From contig NC_085846.1 in NCBI RefSeq assembly GCF_035594765.1, positions 20,695,190-20,759,189 of the forward strand: DNA of 64,000 bases, given 5' to 3'. The DNA is from Anolis carolinensis. Lineage: Eukaryota. A program made the translations under genes and the position numbers. Under the pieces are notes generated by a model. The model had not been told where the DNA came from and made no database searches. It worked only from the letters and a program-made list of their open reading frames with translations. Shown here one piece after another: positions 13,105-62,624 of this stretch (position 1 is its first letter; each line of letters begins with the position of its first letter).

Positions 13105-13470
13105 AAGAAAATCCCCTTTGGAATGTAGAACAGAAGGGTAAATTCCATGGGGAGGTTTTTAGAAGGAAATGTCTATGTGGAATACATTACAGATACTTCT
13201 TTTTGATTATGTCCCCTCCCCAACAACTCTGTGATTCTAAACATGGATGTTAATGCCTTTGATTATATATAAACCTTTGAGAATTTTGTTTGCCCAGAAA
13301 AATATCATGGAAGGTAACTATTTATACACATGATCTAAACTGGAGGAAACTATTATCGAACAGATTTCATCGTAGCCACTTCATTTTACGAAGACAAGAG
13401 ATCATCTGAAATGGACTGAAGAATGTGAAAGAGTGAGTTTACTGGAGACAATGTAAGGAGTTTGGGTAAT
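13105..13470 (+). promoter_or_regulatory. Putative promoter and non-coding first exon of the OR at 15669
   Basis: O/E (Ebf)-like site TTCCATGGGGA at 13143-13153. Alignable with 18320-18715. Donor-like sites AAG|GTAACT (about 13314) and GG|GTAATT (13466). Confidence 0.55.
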
Positions 13471-18319: not shown

Positions 18320-18715
18320 AAACACATGCCTTGGGAATTCAGATTGGAAAGGAAAATTCCATGGGGATATTATTAGAAGGATAGAGAATATAGTAGCTTT
18401 TTATTTATAACCTCCCTCTCTCTACCTCTGGTGATTTGAAATACAGAATGTTAATTCTTTTGATTACAAATGAAAACCCTTGAGAATTTCATTTGCTCAG
18501 AAAAATATCGTGAGGCATTTTACAGAAGGTGACAATTTATATAACTGACCCAAGCCAAATTGTGAAGATACCTATTTTCTATGAGCTCTCAGGAATGCTA
18601 TTCCACTTTATGAAGGCAATGGACAATCTGAAATAGCTTGAAGAGTGGGGAAAAGGACAAGAATTCTTTTTTTAAATTAAATTGACTGTAGACAACATAA
18701 GAAGTCCAGGTAATT
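18320..18715 (+). promoter_or_regulatory. Putative promoter and non-coding first exon of the OR at 21706
   Basis: O/E-like sites TGCCTTGGGA, TTCCATGGGGA (18357-18367) and ACCCTTGAGA. Donor CAG|GTAATT at 18710. Paralogous to 13105-13470. Confidence 0.55.
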
Positions 18716-20793: not shown

Positions 20794-21127
20794 GGGAACC
20801 CTGGTGGCACAGTGTGTTAAAGCGCTGAGCTGCTGAACTTGCAGACCGAAAGGTGCCAGGTTCAAATCCTGGGAGCGGAATGAACGCCCACTGTTAGCCC
20901 CAGCTCCTGCCAACCTAGCAGTTCGAAAACATGCACATGTGAGTAGATCAATAGGTACCGCTCCGGCGGGAAGATAACGGTGCTCCATGCAGTCATGCCG
21001 ACCACATGACCTTGGAAATGTCTATGGACAATGCTGGCTCTTTGGCTTAGAAATGGAGATGAGCATCAACCCCCAGAGTCGGTCACGACTGGACTTAACA
21101 TCAGGGGAAACCTTTACCTTTACTTTT
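20794..21127 (+). mobile_element. Sauria SINE
   Basis: Full head and core, (ACCTTT)n tail, TSD TATCTAAG. Confidence 0.92.
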
Positions 21128-24228: not shown

Positions 24229-25312
24229 GGCCCCATCTAACTGCATTGAACTACATTATATGAGTCTCTACTGCTATATAATGCAGTTCGTAAGCATACG
24301 AGAAGCTCGGCCTCTCACTGAACATCGAGAAAACCAAAGTGCTCTTCCAACAGGCACCAGCTAATCCCTCTGCAAAGCCAGGAATACAGCTTAACGGTGC
24401 AACATTAGAAAATGTTGACCTTTTCCGCTACCTTGGTAGCCACCTCTCCACAAAAGTCAACATCGACACTGAAATACAACACCGCCTGAGCTCTGCGAGT
24501 GCAGCATTTTTCCGTATGAAGCAGAGAGTGTTCGATGACCGGGACATCCGTAGAGAGACCAAGGTGCTTGTTTATAAAGCCATTGTCCTCCCAACCCTGC
24601 TCTATGCCTGCGAAACGTGGACTGTGTACAGACGTCACACCAAACTCCTGGAGCGTTTCCATCAGCGTTGTCTCAGGAAAATCCTGCAAATCTCTTGGGA
24701 AGACAGGCGGACAAATGTCAGCGTGCTTGAGGAAGCAAAGACCACCAGCATTGAAGCGATGCTCTTACGCCATCAACTCCGTTGGACTGGCCACGTTGTC
24801 CGAATGCCCGATCACCGTCTCCCAAAGCAGCTCCTCTACTCTGAACTCAAGAATGGGAAACGGAATGTTGGAGGGCAGGAAAAGAGATTTAAAGATGGGC
24901 TCAAAGCCAACCTTAAAAACTGTGGCATAGACACTGAGAACTGGGAAGCCCTGGCCCTTGAGCGCTCTAATTGGAGGTCAGCTGTGACCAGCAGTGCTGC
25001 GGAGTTTGAAGAGGCACGAACGGAGGGCTTAAGGGAGAAACGTGCCAAGAGGAAGGAGCGTCAAGCTAACCCCGACCGGGACCGCCTTCCACCTGGAAAC
25101 CGATGTCCTCACTGCGGGAGAATATGCGGGTCAAGAATCGGTCTCTTCAGTCACCTAAGAACACACGCCCAAGATACCAAGGTTGGAAGACCATCGTCCT
25201 CGAACGTCGAGGGATCGCCTAAGTAAGTAAGTAAGTAAGTATAATGCAGTTCAATATATACAATGCAGTTCAATGCAGTTGAGCTGCATTACATGGTTGT
25301 GCAGATGGGGCC
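24229..25312. mobile_element. PIF/Harbinger MITE interrupted by an RTE LINE
   Basis: TIRs GGCCCCATCT / AGATGGGGCC lie on either side of the RTE insertion. Confidence 0.7.
24290..25239 (+). mobile_element. 5'-truncated RTE-clade LINE (RT C-terminus and C2H2-like finger) with (TAAG)5 tail
   Basis: Uninterrupted frame GLSLNIEKTKVL...FRYLGS...LLYACETW...LRWTGHVVRM...CPHCGRICGSRIGLFSHLRTH. 13-bp TSD TATAATGCAGTTC at 24277-24289 and 25240-25252. Confidence 0.95.
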
Positions 25313-26184: not shown

Positions 26185-26565
26185 GCAAAATTCCCTGAGG
26201 GGATTGCTATTGGAGTGATACATAAATATTTCAAATAAATAAATGGATACAATTAAACAAAAAAAAATCTCCAAAAAATCTATATAAGAATCACCATCCT
26301 TCAGATGATACCTCAAAGGTCTTTCTCCCCATGGAACTATAATTATATTTATACAAAGATTCTAAAGCTGCTTATTTCCTATGGTCTGAAAAGTATATCT
26401 CCTCGTTACTATCAGCTGTTTAGATTCTAATGATTAGATTAATGGAAGACAGTTGGCAGTGATGTTTTCCAGATGAGAAAGAGAGAGAAAAATTCGATCT
26501 ATGTCATAAGAAGAAAGAAGAAACACAACCAAGAAGAAGCAAAGACAAATAAGATCAAAGGTACA
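26185..26565 (+). promoter_or_regulatory. Putative promoter and first exon of the OR at 29897
   Basis: O/E-like sites TTCCCTGAGGGGA (26191-26203) and TCCCCATGGAA (26326-26336). Homeodomain sites in ctaatgattagattaatgg. Donor-like AAG|GTACAT at 26561. Confidence 0.45.
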
Positions 26566-29896: not shown

Positions 29897-30841
29897 ATGA
29901 AGAATCAGTCTACAACAATGGAGTTTATATTGGTTGGTTTAATAAATTCCACTGAACTACAGACACTTCTCTTTTGGATATTTACATTTATCTATGCTAT
30001 AGCCCTGACTTTTAACTGCCTTCTCATCTTTACCATATGCAACTGCAGAAACCTTCACACTCCCATGTATTTCCTGCTCATCAACTTGTCTTTAGTAAAT
30101 ATATTCTCAATTTCAGTCACAACTCCTAAACTGCTCCAGGCTCTTTGGACCCAGAGAAAAATAATCTCATTTTATGGCTGCATTACACAAGTGTATCTTT
30201 TTATATGGACCTTGGGGACAGAACTTTTACTTCTTTCATTCATGGCTTTTGACCGTTATACTGCTATCTGCCATCCTTTGCAATATACACTGATCATGCG
30301 GAAGGAAGCATGTGTTTGCATAGCAGTAGGAGCGTGGCTTGTTGGAATGGTTAACTCTGCAGTCCATGCTGGGCTCATGCTAAAGCTTTCCTTCCGTGAC
30401 TCAAACATAATCAACCATTTCTTTTGTGATGTGCCACCACTTTTAAAGCTTGCATCCTCAGACACCAGTATCAATGAGAGTATGGCTTTTGCGGCAGATG
30501 TCATACTTGGGATCTTTAATTGTGGTTTGACTCTAATGTCATATTTCTTCATCATGAGAACCATCTTCAGAATTCGTTCTACTGAAGGGAAGAAGAAAGC
30601 TTTCTCCACATGTTCTTCACATCTGGTTGTTGTCAGTTTTTACTTCTCCTCAGTCATTTACACATATATTAGGCCCTCATCTGTCTACTCTTTAGATAAA
30701 GACAAATTGGTTTCTCTCCTATATACTGTGGTAACTCCAGTGCTTAATCCAATTATATATTTTATGAGAAACAAAGAAGTTAAAAAAGCCCTTAAAACAT
30801 TTGTTGCAAAAAGCCATCTGATACCAGCGCCTCAAGCTTGA
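29897..30841 (+). CDS. Olfactory receptor, OR13G1-like, 314 aa
   Basis: MKNQS start; LHTPMYFLL, GTELLLLSFMAFDRY, NHFFCDVPPLL, INESMAFAADVIL, KAFSTCSSHL, YTYIRP. Acceptor ends at 29872. The stop abuts an N gap, so the last codons may be unreliable. Confidence 0.93.
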   Translation: MKNQSTTMEFILVGLINSTELQTLLFWIFTFIYAIALTFNCLLIFTICNCRNLHTPMYFLLINLSLVNIFSISVTTPKLLQALWTQRKIISFYGCITQVYLFIWTLGTELLLLSFMAFDRYTAICHPLQYTLIMRKEACVCIAVGAWLVGMVNSAVHAGLMLKLSFRDSNIINHFFCDVPPLLKLASSDTSINESMAFAADVILGIFNCGLTLMSYFFIMRTIFRIRSTEGKKKAFSTCSSHLVVVSFYFSSVIYTYIRPSSVYSLDKDKLVSLLYTVVTPVLNPIIYFMRNKEVKKALKTFVAKSHLIPAPQA

Positions 30842-32405: not shown

Positions 32406-35400
32406 TATGTTGATAGCTTCCTTGATTTGCTTTCCATATGGGGACATTCTCTGCTACATGTACCATGTTCTTTATTTCCTTTACGTTCTAATGAAGTACC
32501 ATTCTGCTGAGAGTCCCTAACCATTCATCATATGAAAATAACATGTTTTAAGGACCTCAGCTATATTTTTGGAGAGTCATATACTGTAAGAGAAATGCTT
32601 GCACATGAGCATTTATTTTTGTTGTTTGTTCATAGGGGTGTCATGAGGTGAATGACTGAAGTTCATGTAGCATTTTGTGCTAAACTGATTGTGTGAGATA
32701 ACTGTGCATGCTAGATTCTCTGCATCTCTTGCCCCAATACTTAGCTTTCTTCTGTGGTAGTGGCCTATCTTTCCGTGTTATCTATCAATGTGCCTCTCTC
32801 CTTTTATACATCCAACATGACAAGGAAGCAGTGATGTTTGCCCTAGGATAGTGTGTGTTTATGTTGCACAACTCAAGAGTCTTTAAGGTTGCAAGGATAG
32901 CAACAAGTAGGATTATGATAGTTTATTTTTCATGCGCCACTTTTTTTTTTTTTACTTAGCTTGAATTTTCTTATGCAGAGATATTCTGTGCCTTTAAGAT
33001 ATATCTGGGAGATAGGGAAAATTTAATAATCAGTCTCACTTTGAAATCATGATGTTGTCACTTGTCTTGAAAATAAAGGGGCTAAAAATTCATAGTTGGG
33101 AGGTTGTCTAGGGAACTAGACTTCTAGAACTTCCTACAAGCAAGGAATTGCTATCAGGCAGTTAGAAAGGAAAACAACTATACCAGCACTACAGCCAACA
33201 ACAAGAACAACAGCAAGAACTCCAGCCAGGTATGATGTCTAACTTGATTAGCTATATCGGAGAAGAAAGGGCTACAAAATAGTTTCCTTCTTTTGAATAA
33301 ACAGAAATGCTAGAAGACCTTTACTCCAGTGAAGAAACCAAGAATTTAAGATTTTCTAAGTGAAAAGAATGAAGTGGGTTGTATGAAAAGATTGAGACCA
33401 GAGGTCAGCAAGTTGTGGTCCTTCATATATTGTTGGACTGAAATTGCTAATAGATTTTGCCATTAGCTTTACTAGAATTTAATTTTATCTGAAGTGTGTT
33501 TTAGACTTTGTGGCTTATTTTTGTTTATTTAATTGGATCTGTAGGTTCTTTTAAATGCATTTGACTTGGTTACTCTGTTATCTTGCAAGGAAATATGTGG
33601 AATGTCAGTTAAAGTGTTATTTGACCCACTGGCAAACTAAAGTACTATATTTAGAAATGCACTAAAAGAGCTTAGCTTAGTTATACATTACACAAATTGT
33701 ATCTTGGGCAGTGCATTATTTAAAATGACACATAGTGCAATATTTGAAACTAGATAGATATACTGACTAATTGACTCCCAGAGAAGTATTCAGATAATGG
33801 GGCACATCTTCATTTTAGAATTAATGCAATTTGGCACCACTTCGCTCAATGCTATGGATTCATAAGTTGTAGTTGTACAAGTTCTTTTACCTTCTCTGTT
33901 AAAGAGTTCTGGCGCCTTTCCAAAATACAAATACCATGATTCCTTATCATTGATCCATGCAGTTACAGGGGTCTCAAACTGCATTAATTCTACAGTACAG
34001 ATATACAGTGGAGACATTCCAAATATTGAAGGAAACCAGGCTCCCTTAAAAATGTTGACATTTACTAACAAAAGATTAATCAAGGGGAAAATTGGGCTAT
34101 GTATTCAAAGCATTCAGGACTTTATGACCAAAATAAAGGTCAGGGAAGATTGAGATAGGTCCCTTTTGATACCTGCAAACACTCAGTATGAAGGATGGAT
34201 GCATCTTTATTCACTAGTTCAAACAGAATTCTCTCCTTCTCTCTCCTCCCTCTTTTCATTGAATATTTCTGTGGTTGACAATATTGAAAACCTGCTCATG
34301 TTATGGTTTCCCATGGCAGCTATTAACATTATTATTTTACTAACTAAAAGAGATAACAAGATTGGAAGATATAAAAATAATTTCACACTTATTAATAGTT
34401 GCATTGAAGTATGTTTCTAAAAAACCAAAACAATTTTGCCCACTAAAGATGTAATGGCTATTCACTAGATATGATCATTTACACAGTCAACTGACATTTT
34501 AATTTAAATCCAACAAATCAGACAACAAAACTATATTATATAGAAAAAGTATTTTTATTTATACAAGTCTAGATAAGCAAGATTTAGGACAAAACTAATC
34601 CATGTTAATTCTGATATAATATCACCTATTTAGATATCATTATAATTAGTTTCTCTAACTATAATATTATTCATAGTCCTAACCAGAGCAAATTCTTCTA
34701 GCCAGTTGTTGAGTTGTCAACACTTATGAACATTAATTTATTTAATAACATTTATTTAACTGTCTAGTCTAAGTGTTTAGGATTAGTAGTTATGATTTGA
34801 TATTAACATCAAATATCAATTTGTTTAACATTAAATATCAATTAACATCAATTTATTCCATTGAAGGGGAGAGACGACTTTCTGCTTATCACAGTTCTTG
34901 AGAATTTAAGGGTGATAAATAAAACCTTTTAGCAAACATATTATAGGGGTAAACTGTTAACTGAAAAGGTATTGAATTAATATGCATGCAATTATATATA
35001 TTTCATGTTATATGACCCGTCTTGTACTGGGGAAGCAAGAAACATGTAAATTACAACCTTTTCAGTGAAAATACATAAAATTGATTTTTTAACCCTGATA
35101 GATGCTGCAAAGGTAAAAATATGCAGTTTAAGGCACAGGGAGCTGTTTATAAGTGCAACATCAAAGGAGCCTTCAGGTACAATATATCTTAGGCATCAAA
35201 ATGATTAGAGTGGTCAAGTTATATCCTGAGCAGAGAGCTGGTATCTTTAAATGCTCCAAGGTTTCAAATCCAGTTGTGATGCCCATACTCCCTACTTCAT
35301 TCCTGGGCTCCCTGTCCTCTAGCAGCTTAAAAGAAAAAGCATACTATATTGGTTGCATCAGGTGGTGGAGAAGACCCGGTGAGTGAGTTATGGGGATCCC

Positions 35401-38328: not shown

Positions 38329-39264
38329 ATGAAGAATCATTCTGCCATTACAGAGTTCATCCTGGTAGGACTTTCCAGTGCACCTGAACATCAGATGATT
38401 CTCTTCTGGTTGTTCTCCTTCATTTATGCTGTGGCTGTCATCAGTAATATCCTTACCATCCTCGCAATCAACACTTGTAGCAAACTCCACACGCCAATGT
38501 ATTTCTTGCTCGTCAATTTATCTGTAATAAACATTTGCTCAGTTTCTGTTATAGTTCCCAAAATGTTACAAACCATTTTAGCTGAAAGAAAAAGCATTAC
38601 TTTTACTGGTTGCATTGCACAGGTGTATCTTTTCAACTTAATGCTAGGGACTGAACTTATGCTGCTCGCATTGATGGCTTTTGACCGCTATGCCGCTATC
38701 TGCCATCCTTTCCAGTACATGGTCATTATGAGGAAGGAGTTTTGCCTTGGAGCTGTAACAGGTCTGTGGCTCATAGGCATGGCTAATTCTGCAATTCAGA
38801 CAGGACTTGTGGCACAGCTTTCCTTCTGTGACTCCAACGTGATCAATCATTTCTTCTGTGAGCTTCCACCCATGTTCAACATCTCCTGTTCAGACACAAG
38901 TTTGAATGAATCAATGGTTTTTGTTGCTTCTGTGACCATTGTAATAGGTAGCTGTGCAGTGACGTTAACTTCATATTGCTTTATTGTGAGAGACATTATT
39001 AAAATCCGTTCCACAGAAAGTAAGAGAAAAGCTTTTTCCACATGCTCTTCCCATCTCTTGGTAGTCAGCTTTTATTATTCTACAATAATCTATACTTTCC
39101 TCCGGCCTGCTTCAGCTTACTCCCTGGAAGAAGACAAAGTTATTGCTATTATTTATTCGGTACTGATTCCAGTCCTCAACCCACTCATTTACTCTTTGAG
39201 GAACACTGATGTTAAAGAGGCACTCATAAAGCTGGTAGTCAAAAGGGTCTCCCAGAAATATTAG
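38329..39264 (+). CDS. Olfactory receptor, OR13G1-like, 311 aa
   Basis: Strong acceptor ttttgtttgtctag ends at 38304; ATG at 38329 (MKNHSAITEF). Motifs LHTPMYFLL, MAFDRYAAICHP, NHFFCELPP, KAFSTCSSHL, PVLNPLIYSLRN. Confidence 0.96.
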   Translation: MKNHSAITEFILVGLSSAPEHQMILFWLFSFIYAVAVISNILTILAINTCSKLHTPMYFLLVNLSVINICSVSVIVPKMLQTILAERKSITFTGCIAQVYLFNLMLGTELMLLALMAFDRYAAICHPFQYMVIMRKEFCLGAVTGLWLIGMANSAIQTGLVAQLSFCDSNVINHFFCELPPMFNISCSDTSLNESMVFVASVTIVIGSCAVTLTSYCFIVRDIIKIRSTESKRKAFSTCSSHLLVVSFYYSTIIYTFLRPASAYSLEEDKVIAIIYSVLIPVLNPLIYSLRNTDVKEALIKLVVKRVSQKY

Positions 39265-39876: not shown

Positions 39877-40312
39877 AGTAGTTGACTGGTCTACTTCTAA
39901 TTCAGTAGCACAGATACCATCTTTTTCTAACCATTTTAGTAGGGAATAGGTAGGATACCTCAAGAATGGTATGACTATAACATTTCATGGAAAGCTGCTC
40001 TGAAAGTCTTTAAAAAGACAATCCAGCCAAATCTTTCCTTCAAATCAGAAGTTCTCAGCTTTCAAATTTTTTGAATAATGTGCTCACAGTTATGGAACCA
40101 CTGAATTACTTCTATAGTATTTTGATAATGTGTTATTTGCTTATTTATTAATTGTACTATTTCTTGGCTATATTGAAAGGGTAAGCTGTGCTGTGAAGGT
40201 CTTACATCTAAATAAAGAAATAAACAAAGCATGTTATGAATAAATTAATTGGAGGTTTCTGGATATAGAATATTTAGATTGGATTTTAATTTTAAAAAGA
40301 AGATGTGGTATG

Positions 40313-40632
40313 GGTAAAGGTAAAGGTTTTCCCCTGACATTAAGTCTAGCCATGTCCAACTCTGAAGGTGGTGCTCTTCTCAATCTAAGCTGGAGAGCCA
40401 GTGTTGTCTGTAGAACCTCCAAGATCATGTGGCCAGCATGACTGCATGGAGCACCGTTACCTTCCCGCTGGAGCAGTACCTATTGATCTATTTACATTTT
40501 CATGTTTTTGAACTGCTAGGTTGGCAGAAGCTTGGGCTAATAGCAGGAGCTCCCTCCACTCCCCATATTTGAACCGCTGACCTTTCAGTCAGCAAGTTCA
40601 GTAGCTTAGCGGTTTAACATGCTATGCCACTG
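40313..40632 (-). mobile_element. Sauria SINE
   Basis: (AAAGGT)n tail with reverse-complement core and head. Confidence 0.9.
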
Positions 40633-40698
40633 TAGTATACCAAGATGTAGTATAGCTAGGAATAGAGGAGGACATTTGGAGATTATTAAGCAGTCATC

Positions 40699-41032
40699 GG
40701 GCCCCTGGTGGTGGCGCAGTGTGTTAAAGTGCTGAGCTGCTGAACTTGCAGACTGAAAGGTACCAGGTTCAAATCCCGGGAGCGGAATGAGCGCCCGCTG
40801 TTAGCCCCAGCTCCTGCTAACCTAGCAGTTCGAAAATATGCAAATGTGAGTAGATAAATAGGTACCGCTCCGGTGGGAAAGTAACGGCGCTCTATGCAGT
40901 CATGCCGGCCACATGACCTTGGAGGTGTCTATGGACAACGCCGGCTCTTCGGCTTAGAAATGGAGATGAGCACCAACCCCCAGAGTCGGTCACAACTGGA
41001 CTTAAGGTCAGGGGAAAACCTTTACCTTTACC
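40699..41032 (+). mobile_element. Sauria SINE
   Basis: Full length, (ACCTTT)n tail, 11-bp TSD AAGCAGTCATC. Confidence 0.93.
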
Positions 41033-42299
41033 AAGCAGTCATCATTCATTTCATGTAGTGTGTTAAAAGTCTGGTATAAAATGCATGTATATTTTTTCAA
41101 GAAAATGTGTTTTAAAATATTAACAAATTTTAGTATCAATATCTGTTCATTCTTTTTTTAAAAAAAAAAACCCATAAACCAATGGAATGACTAGATATCA
41201 CTGAAAAAGGTGAGAATTAGAAGGAAATTAAAATAGCCTTAACTACTGGCCCCAGTAAGAACACCACTGTATGCTCTTCAAATTAGTGAATTTGTCAGCC
41301 TTAGTGGAGTCATTGTATTTGCATTTGTTATACCTTTCCTGCCACCCTGTGTCCAGAATAGTGAAATGCATGGATTGAATTATTATTTTTCTTGGAGTCA
41401 TCATTAGCCTCCTTCTCCTTGGTCATGCAGGCCAGGCATCTTTGCTGATGCATCCACCAATTTGTTAATGCTGTGTTAAACTAGTTTAACCTTGTTTACC
41501 CTACACTGAGGGCAAGAAGTTGTTCAGTGTCTGGTCCACTTTAAGGTATAGGGTCAAGAGTAGATAAGCTCTAAAATGTATGTTTGGGTGTTTTATTTTG
41601 AATTTTTCTTGAATAAAAATGTATATATAATTTATATTAAAAATGAATATTTTTGATCATCAAAGTTTCTTGAGTTTTCTTGCACATTTATCCTTGGCTT
41701 ATGGGGTTTATTTGAAATCTGGGCTATGATAGTAGAAGTAGAAAACAGTATTTATCTTCTCTATCAAGAATGCTGGTGACTCAGCAAACTACAGTTCCCA
41801 TGATTTCATAGCATCGAAACATGGCAGTTAAATTGGTGTCAAACTGCATTAATGCTATAGTGTAGATGTACTCTCAGTGTCACTTTCTACTTGACTGATC
41901 TTGATTGTAGTTCCCAAACTAATTTTACATTCTTTATTATAAAATCAACAAATCTTAATTTAAAATGAAACTAAATTCTATTAAAAGTATTACTTCGACA
42001 CATGATTAAATTATATTAAAAACCTTGCAGCAACCTAGAATACTTTTAATCTCAAATATTCTCTAAACATCATTGATTTTTCCAATGGTTTTTGTGATTA
42101 GAAAACAGGATTACATTTATTCCCATCCAATTCTATTTTATTTTTCATTTGTGTGCAATGAACAGATGATATCGTGAATGCAGAATGCAAATATTAGTTT
42201 ATTTTGACTTTTCCCTGTAACATAAAGAGCAGTAAATATCTCTTCCATAGCTATTCATCTATGAATACATCTCATTTTTGATGGCAAATCTATCAAACA

Positions 42300-42700
42300 T
42301 TCCTTTACTGCAAGAGTAACTAATGGCATTTTAATGGAAGCATTTTATACACAGGAGAGAAAATTAAATGAGAGATACACAAGTGACCCAGTGTTAGATG
42401 CACATGTGGCAACACATATTCTTTTTGTCTTGCTCATCTAGGCTCGATTAATGAATCACATTTTTATTTTTAATCATGCTCACTGGGATCACTGTGTACT
42501 TTCCCACTAATGATTCCCATTGGAGCCTATTATTTTGGTGCACATGTGACAGTTTATTAACTTGTCATTAATTTCTTCAGAGAACAGGAGTATTCTGGGC
42601 TTACTGCCAAGTTATAGTTATTAGAAGTGTTATTGTTTGCTTTCACTTAATTAAAAGAGTACATTTGTAGAATCTATTTTATCAGCTAATTGTGGAAAGG
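42300..42700. promoter_or_regulatory. Candidate OR cluster enhancer (homeodomain plus O/E motif cluster)
   Basis: Composite TAATGA-T-TCCCATTGGA at 42508-42524, several further TAAT cores, and TGCACATGTG twice. No OR 5' end is nearby. Confidence 0.45.
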
Positions 42701-43029
42701 AGCAGGAATTTTATCAGTACAGTTTGCATTTGCCTGAACTTTGTCTCCATCTGGCTACAGTCATGATTATTTTTATATCACCTTGGTTAATAGATGGCTG
42801 CTTTATTTTTAATTTTTAAATATGATCTCTGTTTGCAACTGATGCTCACTCAAGCATCATTATGATCTCCAAGGTCTATCTATTTCAAACATTGACAGTT
42901 TCATCTACAGTTTTAAAGCCAAAAATAACCTCTTTGTATTGAATTAATGTCCTGTAATAGTTTGATCATTGGGCTATGATGCTCAAATCATGGAAGACCA
43001 CTGAGTTACCTCTGCCCCCCCCCAAAAAA

Positions 43030-43703
43030 AAACCCTCTGGTTTTCTGAGCAGGGGTGGCTACATACCACCCAGATTAAGATCGGAATGGCATGTAGCCAC
43101 CCTGAAGCCCTCCAATTTTCCCCTATAAGTACTGACCACCATAAGTTCCCTCCTCATGTCCTCCTGGTACGAGGAAATGAAGCCTGAGGAGACGCAAGGG
43201 TCAAGGAGAAAAATCTGAGGAGGGAACTTATGCAAGCCAAGTAGCTTTTACTTAACTTTTAGGGGTAAATGGGGCGGCTTGGGGGAGGGGTGGGTGACAT
43301 CCCACACCTTTGGACTCCAGGAGTCAAAAAGGTTCAGGATGGCAATGGAGACTCAACCCCAGGTTGTCTCGAGACTATCCAGAGTCACTTCTAGGTAGTC
43401 TCGAGTATACCTGGGGGTGAGTCCCCATTGCCATCCTGAACCTTTCGGGCTCCTGGAGTCCAAAGGCGTGGGATGGCACCCAGCCCTACCTGTGATTACT
43501 TGAGACTACCACAGGCCCAATACCCCATTAGACCCGAGCCTTTCAGGAAGGCTTGAACCTAAAGGGTATCATATTAATTCAGAACAAAACAGGGAAACCT
43601 TGGTTAGTTCTGAAAAATGCATTTTTACTGGAGGTGTCGTTTGGACACTGCCAGTAAAAACCGAGACAAGTCCCAATTTTTTGGGCCTGTTTAGAATGGG
43701 CCC
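43030..43703. mobile_element. Harbinger-like non-autonomous element with an internal palindrome of about 205 bp
   Basis: Right end tagaatgggccc; inverted arms span 43283-43490. Confidence 0.55.
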
Positions 43704-46700
43704 TTAGTCTAACCCTATTGTGCCATGCACAAATGCACAAGCAAAGCACATGATACATCCAGATCTGAAAACCCTGTGATATGTTTGCTTGAAGACAAAG
43801 GTGTCAAACTAATTTTCACTGACAGCCACATCAGGCTTATTGTTGCCTTCAAAGAGCTGTTTGTAATTGTAAGACTGAATAAATGTAACTATGTTTTCTG
43901 GCATTGAAAGCCTTATACCAGGCCACATAAAATGACATAGTGGGCTGGATCTGGCCTATGGGCCTTGTGTTTGACATGTGCCTTAGGGTCACTGTAAATC
44001 AGAAATAACTTGAAGGAACACAAGTGCAATAACACTAAAGAATATTGTAGTGTCTCTTGATGTATTTTCCAATGGATATTCACAGACCCATCTGTACTAG
44101 CTCCACCTCCTGGCTGTAATTATCTCTTTAATGAAGAAAACTGATGTTGAGTAAATAATGAACACTTCCTCACCATGTCCTATAGCAAATCTTAAAAGGG
44201 AACTTGATTGATGAAATATAACAATGCAAATTTGGAAACTTTCTTTCAAAAAAGCAAAGTTTCTTTTTACGTGAAATCTTCCCCAAGTTAGCTGTTACTG
44301 TCATTGTTGTAAAAAGAGCTTTTGAATTTTCAAAAGTAATTACAACTAATTCCTTTAGCTCTTTTTTATAAGAAAAAAAATATTGCAGTATTATAAGCTA
44401 CAGTCCCATGATATAAAGAAAGCTGGATGACTCACTGTGCTGAGAATTAGTGGATTGGGACAAAGCAGGTCAGGCCATTTTTAGCCCTTCTTCCCAAGGG
44501 CCTGCATGCCCCTACCTAGCCTTTGGAGGAAACAGAAATACTAGCCAATGAGTTTTAATTTAGGTTTGATATGGGTTAGGAGAACTAACCAGAATGGCCC
44601 AAATGTAGACTTCACTTCAGTTGATCTCTCCTCATGTGGATGTTCAGAAGTTGAGCTATTGATCTGTGCTACAAAACATACTCTTCTTCCACTTATCATA
44701 TTGTTACCTCAATATCCAAAGAAAGTACAATGTAGCAGCACAAGACATAACATGGATGAGCAGATGAACTTCGTCACATTCCAAAGTTTTGGACTTTATC
44801 ATACAGAAGTGGAAGCTGGCACAGTAGTAGGACCATCAATAGCACCTGCTTGTACCACGGTTATGCATAGGAAGAAGCTATTTGAGATGGTTGAAATAGC
44901 CTTCTGTTAACTAAATTGACCTTCTGTCAATATAAGCCTCTTCTACCAGTTGATCCCAGAGACTAGTCAGCAAGCAACAGCAACAGCATAAACCCAAAAT
45001 GGAGGCAGAGTAGGGTTGAAGTCAAGTTCTGCCAGATCTAAGCCTTCGCCAAGCCATGGACACTACTACTAATTTAGACCAAGACAAGTGGTCATAAATA
45101 ATTGTCAGCACCTCTGGAATAAGAAGGGTTTTGGCTAAGCAACTTCAACTGTCCTTGTGCAATTTGACCCTGACACTTTATGTCACGGCACTTCTACACA
45201 GCCCTAAAACCCATGATGAAATGGCTTAAAATAACCCGCTTCGGCACGGGTTCCTGTCTTCATCCACTCACCCAAATCCTGTGCTTTTCCAGGGAGGAGG
45301 GTGTCTACATGCCATCCCAATTGAAATTGTGATGGTATGAAACCACCCTTAAGTCTCATTTTCGCTTATCCGAGGTTCTGCTAGACCGTTTATGTTGGAT
45401 AAGTGAGACTCTACTGTACTATTAAAAATAGGCCTAATAAAATTCCACATACTATACCATATCATAATCTCTGTATTGACTTGACATTAATATTGAAAGA
45501 CAGTAATTAATGTGATACAGTTTTACTATTTTGGCTTTATTATAAAAACAGCTTTTTAAATTTCAAACATTGTTTCTTTGTTTTTGTTGTTGTTTTGCTC
45601 ATTGCATGAGAGTTCTGGTTACTTGAGTTCCAGTTAACTGTGAGTCTGTGATATCTGGGAGAGTGGAAGACACCGTATACTATTCAATCTGAAACCACAA
45701 AGGGTATTTGGTTACTCCTAGTTAATTTTAGCCATTCAGGTAGCTGTGTGTAGAGAACACCATCAGCCATATAAATGTGTAAAAGGATATATTCAATATA
45801 CTGCTTTGTAATTCCTTTTAATTATAAACATGCCTAATAGATTTTTTTAATGGAACTCTTACACAAAATCAAGTAATCAATTTTTTCATAAAGAAATCAT
45901 TTTAATATAATTCCACTGAACTATTTTTAAAACATATGAAATATATCCTTTGCTTGGAGAAGCATTTCGTCATTCAACAAAGTTTGCTAACAAGTCCTCG
46001 TGGGTCCTATCAGAGTTATGAAAACTTTCATACAACAGGGGATTAATCAAAATCTCCAAGTTTCTCAGCCACATGGGTAAATTTGAATTGGTCGCCATGG
46101 GCCTAATCATTGCAGTTCTAATTGCATATTCTCTGAAGGATTATTAGAGAACAAGAACTTTTTTTAAAAAATCCAGTGGGAAGGCGCATCCTCTCAAGTC
46201 CAAAGCAGCTGCCCCCTGTGTCTAATTACAAGGGTTACATTTTTTTTAGAAAGCAATTGCAACTGAAGATTCATTGATAATGAAACAAAATGCAATTATT
46301 TTAATGCTCAATACAGTTTTTATTTTATTTTATCATGATTATATACCACTGGAAGTAAAATCATGTACAAATTTGGAAAGAAAGGAGGAGCTGTTTAATT
46401 TTCAACATACAATCTCACTCTGAGAACACAAATGTTTGTACTTGGAATGATCTAATTAAACTTTAGGTTAATCATTTTGCCCAGTATGATTAAACATAGA
46501 TTCAACAACAGATAGATCAAATACACATTCATCTTCCCTCCCTGTTCCATTATAACATGCTGTATCAGTACCTAGGACTTATTTTTCATGAGTTTTCTGG
46601 GCTTTTAAGGCTTTTAGGGATACCCAGAATTATGTGACCTTTTAGGTAAATCCAATGGAATTTCTCCTTAAACTAAATTCATAGCACTGCTTCAACACTG

Positions 46701-47504
46701 ACATAAATCCCAATTTAGTGGATCTGTTTAATATTACATACTAAGTATATTTAATATTGCATTTAATATATAATGCATATGTGTTGTGTGAACCATCACA
46801 ATAAATAAATAATCATTCTTATTTGTTACCTCATGGCTTGAGGCAGGGTGCAACACAATCAAAACATAGTAAAGGAATTTTTAGGTCAAACCACCACTAT
46901 TCTTCATCATAATATTAATTTTAAAATTTCCCGATCTAATTTTCCTAATTTAGCCTTAAACATCTAGTCATGTAAGAGCATTCAGGAGTATTTGAAAAGA
47001 TCTCTGTTGCTTATTGAAATGGAAAATAAATAGGCTACATCTAAGAGACATATATATATCAAAATGCATTTTATACATTTATCCAAATGTCTTTGGAAAT
47101 TCACTCAAATGTGGCTTGTTTAAACATACTGTATTTATTGTTTATCTTTAAGGAACAGAAAATACTAGCAAACCTTAAAGTAAACTTCATCATGTAGTTT
47201 AAAAGCCATTTATTTTTGCACAAATCCTCAGGCTGTATTTGGAAGTAGAAAAGATAGTTTTCTGAACTAATCTTTACAATATTTTACTTAAATTAGCCTT
47301 TCCATTTCAAAATATCCAAAAAAATAAGGCTCTGCTTAAAGTTTGTCTCAGTTCCCTGTTCCTAAGACTGTAGATAATTGGGTTGAGAACTGGGGTCACC
47401 ATTATGTAGAAAATGGACATGAACATTGTATTAAAAGTTGGTCCTGAGAGAGTTCCCTCCCCTCTTGGTTAAAAGCAGGCTAAGCCCCATCGGAAGAAAT
47501 CCAC

Positions 47505-48030
47505 TCCTAGATTATCTTTTTATCCCAGATTATCTGGCAGTGTGGACATATAATCCAGTTCAAAGCAGATTATCTTGGATCAGATCCTGGGATAGAGTGT
47601 TGAAGATCTACACTGCCTTATATCCCAGGATCTGATTCCAGATTATCTGATTTAAACTGGATTATATGAGCTCCCACTGCATATAATCTGGGATAAGAAG
47701 AAAAGGAGGAAGGAAGGAAGGAGGAGGGGGGGGGAGGAGAAGAAGTTTCCCTTGGCTTCCCTTTCTCTCTCCCTCTTTTGCACAAAAGTTCTCCAAAGCT
47801 TTGCAAACCTTCTCCTCTGAAAGAAGGAGGAGGAGGAAGAAGAGGGGGAGGATGAGGAGGATAATAAATGTCCCCACTGCATATAATCTGGGATAAGATC
47901 TTGGGATATGGGGACAGGGCCTCAGGCGAATCTACACTGCCCTAATTCCCAGGATCTGATCCCAGATTATCTGATTTAAACTGGATTATATGAGTCCCCA
48001 CTGCATATAATCTGGCATAAGAAGAAAAGT
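47505..48030. repeat. Cluster of Harbinger-MITE fragments including a direct repeat of about 100 bp
   Basis: tctacactgcc...cccaggatctgat.ccagattatctgatttaaactggattatatgag...aagaagaaaag occurs at about 47607-47705 and 47931-48029. Confidence 0.7.
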
Positions 48031-50545: not shown

Positions 50546-51738
50546 TGTCATTGTGATATGAATCCATTGTCTTTTATCATTTTTCCTCCTTTCTCCTTTT
50601 TTTTTTTGCAAGAACACTTGTGATGAAAAGAAAAACCTCTAATAAACTGCATTTCTGTTTTTTCCAAGGCACACAAACAAGAGTGTGATTGAAAATGTAA
50701 AATTATATATTGGAAAATTATGTATTGTTGCAAAAGTATGAGTTAAATCACAAAAATACTGACAACATAGAAATGTTTCTTTTTGTTTTACCCAGAACCC
50801 TCAATTCTACTTCTTCCATAGGATCAATTAGGACCAAAACAGTACTTTTACTTTAGAACAAGAGCTGTGGGGCTAATCTCTTGCAAAGGTTAATTTTTAA
50901 AAAGTCCTTTGGCTTTTACATCTGTACTTTATACAGCAAATGGTTGTCAATTCAAGTAATGAAATACTATTTTGCACTTTAAAAGGTAGACAAGGAATAA
51001 TAAATTCAGACAGGACCCTTACAGAGGCAAAGAAGTAAAATAGTTGTTGTCAACATTTCTGGTCTCCAGATGTTTTGGACTACCCCTCAGAATTGTGTTA
51101 TCTTTTGCATGATTCATCCTCCTTTCTCTGAGCAGGGAAAGCATGATGGCAGCACAGCCTCATGTGGACAACAAACCAATCCAAATCAGACCTAATTCAT
51201 CCACGCACATTGCCCTGAGCCCAAAGCTAATTTAACCTAGGATAACCTGCATACTCACTGGTAATACAGGCATGTTATGAAGTCAGCCAAGAGTCAATTC
51301 AGGCTAAATTTGGAGTTTTATGGCCATGCAGATTTGCTTAAAGACATCTAGATTGGCACTGTGTTCTGAAGTAAACTTCTGTCTTCATTTCACTGATGCC
51401 TCCACACCTGAACCTAAGTTCCTACTTTGCAAGGGCAAGTTTTCCCTACACATCACACCAGGATTCTCATTTAGTTAAAGTCCTATACACTTGTCATAGA
51501 TTAAAACGAAACATAAAATGTAGCTGTGAGCAAAGGGAATGTCTTTTTCAGCCATTAACATCTTGCCTTGACTGTACCATGGAGTTATCATTCTTAATGC
51601 AGTAGCAATGCCCTGACAATTCTGTTCCATTGCTAATTGGCTAATTTGTTCCATTGTGTCCAGTTGAAAAGTAATGATGCTTTTGATTGCACATTGACTT
51701 TAAATATAGCTCATTTCATGTTTAAATCTTTTGAAATA

Positions 51739-52698
51739 CTAAATGTATGTTTTTCTTTGAACACAGTGTAAAATATTTCTAAATGCCTGCTTCACCTCTT
51801 TGTTTCTTAATGTGTAGATAAAAGGATTTAGCAATGGAGTCACAATTGTGTTTAAGATGTTCACTATTTTTGTTATTTCTGATGGCACCTGTTTGGAAGG
51901 CTTGACAAACAAAAAAACAGTGGAGCCATACCAAATGATCACAACAGCAAGGTGGGAGAAGCATGTCGAAAAGGCCTTTTGCTGTCCTTTAGCTGAAGGG
52001 ATGTGCAGGATGATGGAAATGATGGAAATGTAGGAAAGAAGAGTTATCACACAGGAACCCAAGATTACTATAATAGATATGACAAAAACCACCATCTCAA
52101 TGTCATATGTGTCAGTGCAGGAGAGACCAATCCAGGAATCAATGTTACAGTAGAAATGATTGATCACACTGGGGCCACAGAAAGATAGCCTTGTGATCAG
52201 AAAGGCTGGTATAGAAATTATGAAGAATCCACAGAGCCATGAAGCAGCTGCCAACTTTCTTGAGAGACTGATGCTCATCCTAGTGTGGTAGTGCAAAGGA
52301 TAACATATGGCCAAATATCGATCATATGCCATGGCAGATAACAAGAAATATTCTGTGCATCCAAAGGCAAAAACAAAATACATCTGCAAAATGCAGCCCA
52401 TGAATGAAATATTTCCACTTTTTCCTAGTAATACGCTGAGGGTCTTAGGAATAGACGCTGTAGTATACCAAATCTCTAGAAAGGAGAGGTTACAAAGCAA
52501 GAAATACATGGGAGTATGGAGAGGACTATTTGTTGTTACTAGAAGGATGATGGCTGTGTTTCCCAAAAGAGTCAAGATATACATGAAAAGTAAAAGGATA
52601 AAGATAAAACACTTTAAATACTGAGACACAGAGAAGCCAACAAGAATGAATTCCTCAACTCTTGTTTCATTTGGGGTTGCTTCATTTTTCTCTTCCAT
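51739..52698 (-). CDS. OR6F1-like: Olfactory receptor, OR6F1-like, 319 aa
   Basis: ATG at 52698 (MEEKNEATPNET); acceptor ttgttttggcag ends at 52713. LSFLEIWYTT, QMYFVFAFGCTEYFLL, IWYGSTVFL and LNTIVTPLLNPFIYTLRNKEV closely match OR6F1 as recalled. Confidence 0.95.
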   Translation of the reverse strand: MEEKNEATPNETRVEEFILVGFSVSQYLKCFIFILLLFMYILTLLGNTAIILLVTTNSPLHTPMYFLLCNLSFLEIWYTTASIPKTLSVLLGKSGNISFMGCILQMYFVFAFGCTEYFLLSAMAYDRYLAICYPLHYHTRMSISLSRKLAAASWLCGFFIISIPAFLITRLSFCGPSVINHFYCNIDSWIGLSCTDTYDIEMVVFVISIIVILGSCVITLLSYISIISIILHIPSAKGQQKAFSTCFSHLAVVIIWYGSTVFLFVKPSKQVPSEITKIVNILNTIVTPLLNPFIYTLRNKEVKQAFRNILHCVQRKTYI

Positions 52699-56949: not shown

Positions 56950-58273
56950 TTAATTCTTTTGTGACAGAACTTGATCACAAAAAATTCCAGCTGAACAAAT
57001 TTTTGGACAGGATGACAATGAATAATTTGGAATTGCATAGGACCCATGTATCGTAGCTGAAATATTACCGAGTAGTTTACTCAGAGTTTCCTTAACCTCC
57101 TTATTCCTCAAGCTATATACTATTGGATTAAACATGGGAGTCAGGACAGTATATAGTAAGGAAAGTATTTTGTTTAATTCTACTGATTCTGTCCCTGTAG
57201 AGACTGCATATGTAATTCCTAGTGTTCCATAGAAAGTACTTACCACAATCAAATGAGAACTACAAGTGGAAAATGCTTTCTTCTTTCCAGAGGAAGTTGG
57301 AATTTTTAAAATAGACAATATAATACAGATGTATGAGGTGATGGTCAAGATGAAAGGACACAAGGACACTGCAAAACATGCTACAAAGATGGCCACTTCT
57401 GCCAGGTGGGTGTCAGAGCAAGACAATTTCAACAAGGGTGTCAAGTCACAAAAAAAAATGATCAATATGATTAGGACCACAAAGTGTTAAAGATGAGGAT
57501 ACAATCAAATTCAAACCAGCAGCTGAGAAGAAACCCCATAACCATGTACAGACCATTAATTTAAGGCAAGTGTTCAAATTCATCAACTTGGTATAGTGAA
57601 ACGGGTTACAGATGGCAAGATAGCGATCATAGGACATAAGCAACAGAAGAAAACATTCAACAGTTCCAAGAGCACAGAAAATGTAGAGCTGTATAATGCA
57701 ACCTGTCACTGAAATGGATTTCTCCTTTCTCAATAAATCAACCAGCATCCTAGGGGTGATGTTTGAAGTATACCATATGTCCAGGAATGATAAGTTGCTG
57801 AGAAAAAAATACATTGGAGTGTGGAGTCTCCTATCAAAAGAGACAGCTACTAAAAAGAAAGAATTCCCAATTATTGTTAAAGCATATATTCCTAAAAACA
57901 GCAGAAAGATAAGAAATCGAAGTTCTTCTAGATTTCCAAAACCATGGAGTATTAAAAAAGTCATTGTTGTCCCGTTTCTATGTACACCATCTTTTAGAAT
58001 GTCCTAATTAGGGGAGAAAGAGATATTTATGAAATTAATATTTTTATGTAATTATAAATTATGCACAAATTTGTTTTGTTCGAAAGTGTATGATTCAGTT
58101 CATATTTTTTTATACTGAATGTTTAACTATATAGTAGTTTCAGAAAATGTATTGTTACTTATACAGTTATCAGACACCTGAGAGAGATTACACACACACA
58201 TTTGCCAATGTCTACAAATTTAGAATCTCTATTCACTATGATTAAAGATGTTCTCATTGACTCTTACCTTCAT
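56950..58273 (-). pseudogene. OR11L1/OR11A-like olfactory receptor with a +1 frameshift in a T9 run (pseudogene or assembly error); predicted coding exons 58273-58268 and 58003-56950
   Basis: ORF 57964-57446 (TM1-TM4) and ORF 57480-56950 (TM5-TM7) join at DHFF|CDL if one base of A9 (57450-57458) is removed. No other disabling lesion was seen. Confidence 0.88.
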
Positions 58274-60292: not shown

Positions 60293-62624
60293 TGAACATG
60301 AATTGATAGCTGACTTGTAGGCAACACCTGAGATGGGACTGAGATTCAGCTGCTAAATAATGACTCAGGGAGGGCTTTCAAATATAATAGCAACCTCCAC
60401 ACATAACATCCTGAGGATTGTAGCGCTTTATGACAAACAAGACAAATATCTCACTCAGGACCTCTTCACACGTGCTGCAGGAATTGCCAGGAATAATGGC
60501 AAATCCGGCGTTGCCCATCTGGGGACGCTGTTGCCTCATGCTTCACATCAGCCGACTCACCCATGTCCCCATCTCACAAGGGGAAGCATCCACTGCCCAG
60601 CTCCACCACCACCCCGTTGATCCAAACCTCCCACATTGCTGTGGTGGTGGTATCTTTGGGCTCACCCGGCTGAAGTTGTAGTGTGTTGTGTAATGGGAGC
60701 TGGTGGGCTCTGCCATAAAGGAGATGGCGAACTGGCACATGTTGCCAATTTCACCCTCATCTGATGAGATCATCACCTTTAAAAAACCAAACCAGCATTC
60801 AATAGCACTGAGTCATGGTGATTAATGTGGTGCCAAACCACTATGATTCTGCAGCATGGATACAATCTTTGAGGGAGGATGGCAACCTTAACATTTCTAA
60901 CTGTTATCCAAGAAAGGAATGGTTTTAATTGGTTGAAAACACTGGAATCATAATGCAGGGCACAGGGATATCCATGTGATTATCGATCACATATATCCCA
61001 TCATATCCTAGGATCCAGGCGAAAAAGGCTTTCAGACAGAGATTTGGTGGTGCAGGTGTATTATGTAAAGTACTGTGTCTTTTTTTGACTCCCTATATAT
61101 AAGGACACTGATCATTACTTCAAGGCCTGATGCCAAAATCAGTATCAGACCAGGGTCTGGCCCATGCACTGAGCATGAACTTTTATCAATGCAAGACTTG
61201 GGGGGCATCTACATAGTTAAATTAATGCAGTTTGACACCACTAGCTCAATGCTATAGAATCCTGGGATTTGTATATATGAAAAATAGTATTGTGCCTTAC
61301 CAAGCTACAACCCCATGATAACTCTAGAACTGAAGTTGTGCCAAACTGCATTAATTCTACAGTATATACACACTCTCTGTCAAGGAGACTAGAACTATCA
61401 TTTTTCTAAAGGGGCATTGAGTATCTTGAGTCAGGCAACTGATTCTGTTTTTATGTGCCACAAAACACAATAAAGGCAATGTTTGATAAAAGAGGTAGTC
61501 GCCCATGCCCTGTCTCCCAAGCCTGCACCTTAAAAAGGCTACCGGTATGTCTATTTTTTTCATTGCAGAATGTTGAGGGCATCGAACCAAAGATTCCTTT
61601 GGGATTATGTGTGAATTAGATTGCAGAGAAAAAATACGATTTAAAGTACTAACCAATCATGTAACACATGCAGTTCTAAAGGTTCGCCTTGGTGCCACCA
61701 GAAGTCAGTGGGTAACACCCCAGTTATTGGATTGCTCATAAGGTTCCGATGTTTTGCCAGGGGAGGCTGAGAAGGAAATCAAGGGTGGCAGGTGATTTTA
61801 CAACTTCCCTCTTGCTCCTTTTCAATTCAACATGGCTTAAATACATTACAGGTTAAATAAAGTACACTTATTCAACCTATTTCTCTGTGTCAGATCTTGT
61901 TATTCAATTGTCATTCAGTAACATTTTTTCCAGATGAAGGAAAGTAAATCAATCAGGGTCTGACACATGTCTATTGGATGCCATCTTATTCTGAGTCTCT
62001 TAGCCTCTTTTCTTGCATCTGTATTTAATCCAGTTACCAGTGTTTGGGGCTAAGTAGGATTATTTTTGAAGATCCACTGTCAACATGATTGGAAAAAAAT
62101 AGAGGGTGGGTTTTTTTGCATCTGGAAACAAGTTTTAGGTGCTAAGATGCTAGAAAGGTTGGGTACACAAAGTTCACAAGTGATTAAATGTGCTTCATGG
62201 GCAATTACTTGTCTTATAATCCTGTGCATAGCTTCTTTGTTCCTGTCTTACTGGATCCAACATTTTGTTTACGCAAATACTGTATACTCAGACCTTGCTT
62301 TGCTAGGAACTCCATATTAATGCAAGGTACAAAAGCTGGAAGATGAGGGTGATATTTATGACTTCTTCTTGCCTGATAAATATATTCTTGAATGGCTCTG
62401 TTATCTGTTTATTTTGTAGTTGTGAAAATTGTACATGCCCTAGCTGATATTCTATCGTGTAAATAAATGTTATAAACTGGAAGTTGCTGCCAATTGTTAG
62501 AGAAATAAGGTTGAACACTGTGAAAGCCACCCACTGTATGGCTAGCAGCTTCCTCCCAGTAGACATAAATCAATGAAAAGTTTCATGAGAACCACTACTC
62601 TTCTTAATATTCTTTTAGCTACAA

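What the first reader, a model, noticed from the sequence alone, without database searches (positions are those of the whole stretch)
42300..42700. Candidate reptilian Greek-island-like OR enhancer with an Lhx2/Ebf composite motif
Seen: 42508-42524 reads TAATGA-T-TCCCATTGGA, a homeodomain site followed by a 1-bp spacer and an O/E (Ebf)-like site one mismatch from TCCCnnGGGA. Within about 300 bp are TAATGA-A-TCAC (42449), TAATCA, TCATTA followed by TCTTCAGAGA (about 42565), TAATGG twice, TAATTA, TAATTG, and the 10-mer TGCACATGTG (an E-box) twice. No transposon was recognised in the block. It lies in the 12.5-kb gap between two convergently transcribed ORs (stops at 39264 and 51739), so it cannot be the promoter of either. 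Established: mouse OR enhancers (H, P, Greek islands) are marked by adjacent Lhx2 and Ebf sites with fixed short spacing. Inference: this may be the cluster's choice enhancer in a squamate, where such elements are little characterised.
Basis: partly seen in the sequence, partly recalled or inferred. Interest (0 to 1): 0.75.

Follow-up and report, generated by a model that had tools for sequence, protein, structure and literature searches.

The report
Likely lizard smell-gene choice enhancer
A single-copy 400-letter non-coding stretch among a lizard's smell-receptor genes carries a cluster of DNA words resembling those of mouse smell-gene switches, and lies just behind a gene whose mouse namesake has such a switch on the same side, so it is likely, though untested, a reptile version of that switch.

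Summary
All motifs are present as stated. The block is single-copy and lies 3' of every nearby OR gene. Homeodomain (HD) density alone is not above chance (max of 7 or more in 43 of 200 to 181 of 300 shuffles). The HD+1 bp+O/E site alone is borderline (7 of 200 to 10 of 100). The two together are rare (1 of 800; 4 of 1,462), by post-hoc scores.

New lead: the upstream gene is OR13G1-like, and mouse Greek Island Thira lies 10.8 kb 3' of Or13g1, the same side as this block.

Against: the + strand site misses the published composite pattern at the spacer base; two published matrices rank the sites low; one HD site is polymorphic; similar HD/O/E pairs occur at probable promoters; a rival cluster lies at 45.8-46.5 kb. 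No cross-species alignment or chromatin data could be obtained.

Verdict: probable Greek-Island-like enhancer (0.55); descent from a Thira ancestor about 0.2. The scan noted similar composites before at shark receptor promoters, not at this locus.

The parts
42300..42800 (.). Candidate enhancer block: single-copy, 34% GC, 11 HD-type hexamers between 42321 and 42793
   Evidence: motif map; flat single-contig depth in 6 runs that cover it
42508..42524 (+). HD hexamer TAATGA + 1 bp + O/E-like TCCCATTGGA; same geometry as the Sfaktiria composite; 16 of 17 positions of the published degenerate pattern (spacer is T, pattern asks A/G)
42516..42532 (-). Second, opposed HD (TAATAG) reading into the same O/E site; matches the published degenerate pattern 17 of 17; makes an HD-O/E-HD dyad over 42508-42532
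42565..42583 (+). TCATTA plus weaker O/E-like TCTTCAGAGA; the TCATTA is broken by a segregating A>T variant at 42567
42399..42408 (.). E-box 10-mer, copy 1 (role doubtful)
42539..42548 (.). E-box 10-mer, copy 2 (role doubtful)
38329..39264 (+). Intact OR13G1-like gene, in a pan-squamate near 1:1 clade; stop 3,244 bp before the composite; likely target
51739..52698 (-). Intact OR6F1-like gene; possible target
47325..47441 (-). C-terminal OR pseudogene remnant inside the gap
41766..41875 (.). High-copy interspersed repeat, left limit of the single-copy segment
43040..44060 (.). High-copy repeats, right limit of the single-copy segment (limits approximate, 91-bp bins)

Best explanation
This single-copy block 3.2 kb behind an OR13G1-like gene is likely an olfactory-neuron enhancer of the Greek Island type, at which Lhx2 would bind the TAAT sites and an Ebf dimer the adjacent O/E site. 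Shown: motifs, spacing, single-copy status, position 3' of all neighbouring ORs. Inferred from mouse: co-binding would keep the block open within OR heterochromatin, Lhx2 would recruit Ldb1, and the element would join an enhancer hub and raise the chance that a nearby OR (the two OR13G1-like genes, the OR6F1-like gene) is chosen. Inferred more weakly: it may descend from the same ancestral element as mouse Thira.
For: Geometry equals the Sfaktiria EMSA probe: hexamer, 1 bp, 10-bp O/E. It is the only HD+1 bp+O/E site with at most 1 mismatch in 64 kb. Composite plus 7 HD sites in 400 bp: 1 of 800 local shuffles; literature-word score top in the window, reached in 4 of 1,462 shuffles. Single copy, not RNA-family (0 Rfam hits in the gap), no + strand TATA or splice donor by the same patterns that found both at 34309. 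Mouse Thira is Lhx2/Ebf co-bound, more than 500 bp from an OR TSS, 10,757 bp 3' of the Or13g1 stop with no listed OR between; at most 126 of 1,255 mouse ORs can be an island's immediate neighbour. 13G1-like and 6F1-like genes share contig lengths in gecko, rattlesnake and turtles. Weak: run X13 differs at 3 of 1,151 bases here against 7 of 740 in a flank (p 0.049).
Against: HD density alone is at chance level, and a looser joint rule (2 mismatches, 5 HD) is met in 35 of 300, 19 of 300, 18 of 200 shuffles. Scores were set after seeing the block. Spacer T fails the published pattern; none of the 9 canonical-HD strict matches in the window is in the block. Two published matrices rank the sites 170th to 634th (O/E) and 65th (extended HD). 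The 13-bp H/P word is absent (4 mismatches). TCATTA at 42565 is broken in 2 of 6 covering runs. HD/O/E pairs also lie 3.3-4.0 kb upstream of three ORs. Gene order differs from mouse (Or6f1 is 5' and tandem there). 13G1-like is a large squamate family, and orthology to mammalian OR13G1 rests on database names (no mammalian OR13G1 among 120 listed of 521).
Confidence: 0.55

Rival explanations
1. Chance cluster of short AT-rich words in neutral single-copy DNA, picked out because the reader knew what to look for in an OR cluster.
For: HD maximum at chance level and composite alone at 3.5-10% per window. Low matrix ranks. One HD site segregates. The published pattern is loose (267 strict matches in the window). 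Many windows are scanned, so a few p near 0.003 hits are expected (inference).
Against: Joint statistic 1 of 800 and 4 of 1,462. The Thira position is independent of the motif search. Mouse density gives a non-trivial prior of 0.11 islands per 64 kb of OR cluster.
Confidence: 0.25
2. A promoter rather than an enhancer: the orphaned promoter of a deleted third tandem OR13G-like gene, or the promoter of a non-coding or distant transcript.
For: O/E followed by a HD site recurs at 26326, 34309 and 42515, about 8 kb apart, like the tandem genes at 29897 and 38329; 34309 has TAATAG+1 bp+O/E. A minus-strand TATA-like word lies at 42349. Ten mouse co-bound sites lie within 500 bp of an OR TSS.
Against: No + strand OR remnant in the gap at E below 0.3. 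No alignment to the four probable promoters beyond random segments (24 of 144 to 99 of 137 random segments score as high). No + strand TATA or donor. A promoter orphaned long ago would decay unless reused (inference). The nearest intact OR it could face is 34 kb left.
Confidence: 0.13
3. A functional but non-olfactory element (other homeodomain, Ebf or bHLH factors), or an old repeat decayed below 80% identity.
For: Six E-boxes against 2.4 expected (59 of 2,000 block shuffles). The third copy of the 10-mer lies inside a repeat family at 20932. Repeats under 80% identity were not testable.
Against: Only OR genes were found in the window apart from a repeat-type ORF. No similarity to other window DNA. 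No multi-copy signal.
Confidence: 0.07

Closest known systems
Mouse Greek Island enhancers and their Lhx2/Ebf composite motif (PMC5608512; PMC11643329)
   Same: Intergenic in a class II-type OR cluster, about 400 bp, HD hexamer + 1 bp + O/E 10-mer, several further HD sites.
   Different: Spacer base is T where the published pattern and the three mouse composites I could read (Sfaktiria probe, two in the first 400 letters of the hub construct, read by eye) have a purine. Has an opposed second HD. No binding or chromatin data. Reptile.
Greek Island Thira (mm10 chr7:86294968-86295431)
   Same: 3' side of the OR13G1-named gene, in a cluster that also holds OR6F1.
   Different: 10.8 kb against 3.2 kb from the stop. 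Mouse Or6f1 is upstream and tandem, lizard OR6F1-like is downstream and convergent. Sequences not compared. Thira has two permissive composites (best score 9.05).
J element core (PMC5638857, PMC7804114); H and P elements
   Same: Several HD sites plus an O/E-like site in 200-400 bp; J has one functional composite.
   Different: J serves class I ORs and was found from platypus to human, not in zebrafish or Xenopus. The AAACTTTTC word and the 13-bp H/P word are absent from the block.
OR proximal promoters (PMC12547500)
   Same: AT-rich, with HD and O/E sites.
   Different: The block is downstream of all near ORs and lacks the + strand TATA/donor seen at 34309.

Membership tests
Greek Island OR enhancer | Lies within an OR gene cluster, intergenic | tested here: met
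Greek Island OR enhancer | Co-bound by Lhx2 and Ebf in mature olfactory neurons | not testable with these tools
   no ChIP or CUT&RUN data
Greek Island OR enhancer | Accessible, H3K27ac-marked, flanked by H3K9me3 heterochromatin | not testable with these tools
   no chromatin data
Greek Island OR enhancer | Composite motif or very close Lhx2 and Ebf sites (61 of 63 islands) | tested here: met
   HD sites 1 bp and 2 bp from an O/E site with 1 mismatch
Greek Island OR enhancer | Match to the published degenerate composite pattern | tested here: inconclusive
   + strand 16 of 17, - strand 17 of 17; pattern has 267 matches in the window
Greek Island OR enhancer | HOMER composite score above 5 or 10 | not testable with these tools
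   matrix is published as a figure; no matrix turned up in the supplements read
Greek Island OR enhancer | Non-repetitive sequence | tested here: met
   single copy at 80% identity; older repeats not excluded
Greek Island OR enhancer | Cross-species conservation of the motifs | not testable with these tools
   no genome held; no look-alikes; 16 metagenome loci were other OR families
Greek Island OR enhancer | Drives a reporter in olfactory neurons; deletion lowers nearby OR choice | not testable with these tools
   experiment needed
H/P-type element | 13-bp extended homeodomain word | tested here: not met
   best match in block has 4 mismatches
Ortholog of Thira | Same position relative to the OR13G1 gene | tested here: inconclusive
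   same side; order of OR6F1 differs; gene orthology by database names only
Ortholog of Thira | Alignable sequence | not testable with these tools
   Thira sequence not available as a stored locus
OR proximal promoter | Upstream of an OR, with TSS and spliced first exon | tested here: not met
   3' of the ORs at 38329, 47325 and 51739; no + strand TATA or donor by pattern; TSS itself not testable

The most novel reading that the evidence does not exclude
The block is the reptilian ortholog of mouse Greek Island Thira: an OR-choice enhancer kept 3' of OR13G1 since the last common ancestor of mammals and lizards, showing that individual Lhx2/Ebf islands, and so the enhancer-hub mechanism of singular receptor choice, predate mammals.
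Probability: 0.2. Interest if true: 0.72.

Novelty: new member of a known kind. Interest (0 to 1): 0.45.

Why it matters
OR-choice enhancers are defined almost wholly in mouse; the deepest conservation I found in print is the J element, to platypus (PMC5638857). Eight literature searches listed no paper whose title or abstract start describes a reptile or bird OR enhancer; the library lacks most subscription journals. A validated lizard island would make the age of the Greek Island system directly testable with one alignment and one reporter assay, and anoles have a small OR repertoire (recalled) in which a deletion would be easy to read. The mechanism itself would be the known one.

Tried and rejected
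Whole genome: none held. Cross-species DNA: the run search listed one species only (24 runs); the scan's index had no look-alikes; the metagenome scan gave 16 loci at 31-52% identity, none an OR13G ortholog, with 0 composites at 2 mismatches or fewer in 71,287 bp. Mammalian OR13G1 for a tree: not among the listed hits of three searches, so the tree (quick method, 43 of 266 stored proteins plus 6 window ORs) tests squamate orthology only. Expression: no RNA holder on record; two guessed-RNA runs had low-depth contigs beside the core but none over 42367-42621, which is no evidence either way. HD density, E-boxes and the doubled 10-mer as support: rejected. Paralogy of the block to probable promoters: not found. 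3' UTR of the OR13G1-like gene: judged unlikely, AATAAA-type words lie at 40211-40239. Rfam: 0 hits. (bacterial promoter scan over 11 bases) was irrelevant. Supplements of PMC11643329 and PMC10088727 could not be read; they may hold island sequences and the human position of Thira. Zebrafish E15 enhancers are recalled; one search did not confirm them.

Full report
Setting. The window is an olfactory receptor (OR) cluster of an anole-like lizard. Seven long OR reading frames, one frameshifted OR (57061-57994, minus) and one C-terminal OR remnant (47325-47441, minus) were found. The gene at 38329-39264 (+) is 90% identical to an Anolis sagrei protein; 10 of the 14 listed hits at 72% identity or more are named OR13G1-like, 1 OR13A1-like, and 3 carry no family name. 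The gene at 51739-52698 (minus) has 18 of its top 20 non-self hits named OR6F1-like. No whole genome is held.

The observation. One addition: CTATTA at 42527-42532 puts a second homeodomain (HD) word on the other side of the O/E site, so 42508-42532 is an HD-O/E-HD dyad. The block is not a recognisable repeat. Contigs of 8 of the 24 listed runs were laid at 80% identity. Thousands piled on 41766-41875 and on about 43040-44060, while 42300-42700 showed flat single-contig depth in the 6 runs that cover it. Older repeats are not excluded. Rfam gave 0 hits in the gap.

Is it more than chance? In part. The 400-bp window at 42301 is the best 1 of 1,272 for TAATKR sites (7; mean 1.18). Shuffles that keep local 2-, 3- or 4-mers reach 7 somewhere in 181 of 300, 78 of 300 and 43 of 200 runs, so HD density alone is ordinary. 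An HD+1 bp+TCCCNNGGGA site with at most one mismatch occurs in 13 of 300, 18 of 300 and 7 of 200, and 10 of 100 global shuffles. Both together occur in 0 of 300, 1 of 300 and 0 of 200, but a looser rule (2 mismatches, 5 HD) is met in 35 of 300, 19 of 300 and 18 of 200. A second score built from HD hexamers and the O/E consensus given in papers ranks the block first, reached in 4 of 1,462 shuffles; a block at 46212 comes second, reached in 27 of 1,462. Both scores were designed after seeing the block. The doubled E-box 10-mer is rare in block shuffles (17 of 2,000) but common in real DNA (18 of 159 windows).

Fit to the published motif. The Sfaktiria EMSA probe has the same geometry: hexamer, one base, ten-base O/E, and the 1-bp spacing is stated in PMC11643329. 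The degenerate 17-position pattern in that preprint asks for a purine at the spacer. The lizard + strand site has T (16 of 17). The minus-strand reading at 42516-42532 fits 17 of 17, but the pattern has 267 strict matches in the window. Of 9 strict matches with a canonical HD, none is in the block; 33768 and 50814 are. Two of the twelve matrices of PMC6744719, built from 6 and 4 sites, rank the block's O/E-like sites 170th to 634th and its best extended HD 65th. The H/P 13-mer and the J-element 9-mer are absent. The HOMER matrix itself was not available. The site is thus a near match, not a proven strong composite.

Position against mouse. This is the independent lead. Mouse Or13g1 (Olfr309) is at mm10 chr7:86306188-86307111 (minus), Or6f1 (Olfr308) at 86321027-86321950 (minus), and the preceding row is Or14c46. 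Greek Island Thira is at chr7:86294968-86295431, is bound by Lhx2 and Ebf, and is not at an OR TSS. It lies 10,757 bp beyond the Or13g1 stop (9,044 bp from the gene in the eLife table). The lizard composite lies 3,244 bp beyond the stop of the OR13G1-like gene. At most 126 of 1,255 mouse ORs can be an island's immediate neighbour, so the coincidence has a chance of roughly 5-10% (inference). A paper maps Thira into the human chr1 q-terminal OR cluster (PMC10088727). The lizard gene falls in a 14-row clade from geckos to snakes (SH-aLRT 99, quick tree). 13G1-like or 13A1-like and 6F1-like proteins share contig lengths in Gekko (280,277), Crotalus (1,706,062), Pelodiscus and Carettochelys, which suggests an old linkage. 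Caveats: OR6F1 lies on the other side and in the other orientation in mouse; 13G1-like is a large squamate family; no mammalian OR13G1 was retrieved; the two enhancer sequences were not compared.

Variation within the species. Listed variants are at 42287, 42317, 42567 and 42719. None is listed in 42318-42566. Differences are fully located for X12, X13, X16 and X17; X15 and X11 have 5 and 10 unlocated ones because 175 table rows were hidden. X13 differs at 3 of 1,151 bases here and 7 of 740 in a flank (p 0.049, one haplotype). The 42567 variant breaks TCATTA in 2 of 6 covering runs, which speaks against strict need for that site.

Promoter rival. O/E sites with an adjacent HD also occur 3.3-4.0 kb upstream of three ORs (18357, 26326, 34309). 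The pair 13144/18357 is a conserved paralogous block, and 34309 has a TATA word and a splice donor downstream. These look like promoters and show that the HD/O/E grammar is in use in this lizard. The sites at 26326, 34309 and 42515 are about 8 kb apart, so 42515 could be the orphan promoter of a lost tandem copy. No + strand OR remnant was found, the block aligns to none of the four probable promoters, and it has no + strand TATA or donor by the same patterns. It is richer in HD sites than they are (10 within 200 bp, against 3-5).

Mechanism. Shown: anatomy and position. From mouse work (PMC5608512, PMC11643329, PMC7804114): Lhx2 binds HD sites and Ebf binds O/E; co-binding keeps islands open in heterochromatin; Ldb1 recruited by Lhx2 builds the hub; a composite mutation cripples the J element. 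Most mouse OR enhancers work in zebrafish neurons (PMC8213717), so the trans-acting factors are likely conserved in lizards. Inferred: the block works the same way on neighbouring ORs. I put this at 0.55, chance at 0.25, promoter at 0.13, other at 0.07.

Novelty. If real, it is a new member of a known kind, in a clade for which eight searches listed no described element. Earlier notes of this scan report HD/O/E composites at shark receptor promoters (unchecked); none concerns this locus or a reptile.

Papers seen. PMC5608512: passages, section 7, supplementary files 1, 2, 3, 7 whole, file 6 cut, rows of figure data. PMC7804114: parts 1-2 of 5. PMC7160942: supplement rows only. PMC6744719: passages and supplement passages. 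PMC11643329, PMC10088727: passages; supplements unreadable. PMC8213819, PMC8213717, PMC12547500, PMC5638857: passages. Recalled, from no call: zebrafish E15 elements, the small anole OR repertoire, and that database names follow the best curated hit.

Noticed in passing
window 45800-46500: Second HD-dense block (14 hexamers) with an O/E-like site at 46172 and an HD+1 bp+weak O/E site at 46212-46228 (minus); score reached in 27 of 1,462 shuffles. A second island candidate; repeat status not checked with reads.
   Followed up: partly
window 13115-13433 and 18329-18655: Conserved paralogous non-coding block (65% over 342 bp) 2.5-3.3 kb upstream of the ORs at 15669 and 21622, with an O/E-like site; probable promoters and first exons.
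   Followed up: partly
window 34309-34420 and 26326-26345: O/E plus HD pairs 4.0 and 3.6 kb upstream of the two OR13G1-like genes; 34309 has a 1-bp-spaced composite-like site, a TATA word and a splice donor. A composite at a probable promoter would differ from mouse, where composites are depleted from promoters.
   Followed up: partly
window 33768-33784 (+) and 50814-50830 (-): Isolated strict matches to the published composite pattern with a canonical HD.
   Followed up: no
window 47325-47441 (-): C-terminal OR remnant next to repeat-like inverted elements at 47512-48030.
   Followed up: partly
window 57061-57994 (-): Full-length OR gene with a frameshift near 57450; pseudogene or assembly error.
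   Followed up: no
window 40313-41032 and 43283-43490: Head-to-head pair of interspersed repeats forming a 700-bp inverted repeat, and a 101-bp-arm hairpin element.
   Followed up: no
window 24516-25226 (+): 236-aa ORF that reads like the C-terminal end of a LINE reverse transcriptase ORF (label from recall).
   Followed up: no
window 62570-62583: Exact J-element-type AAACTTTTC word (minus, 62575) overlapping a 2-mismatch copy of the H/P 13-mer at 62570; about 4.6 kb upstream of the minus-strand OR at 57994.
   Followed up: no
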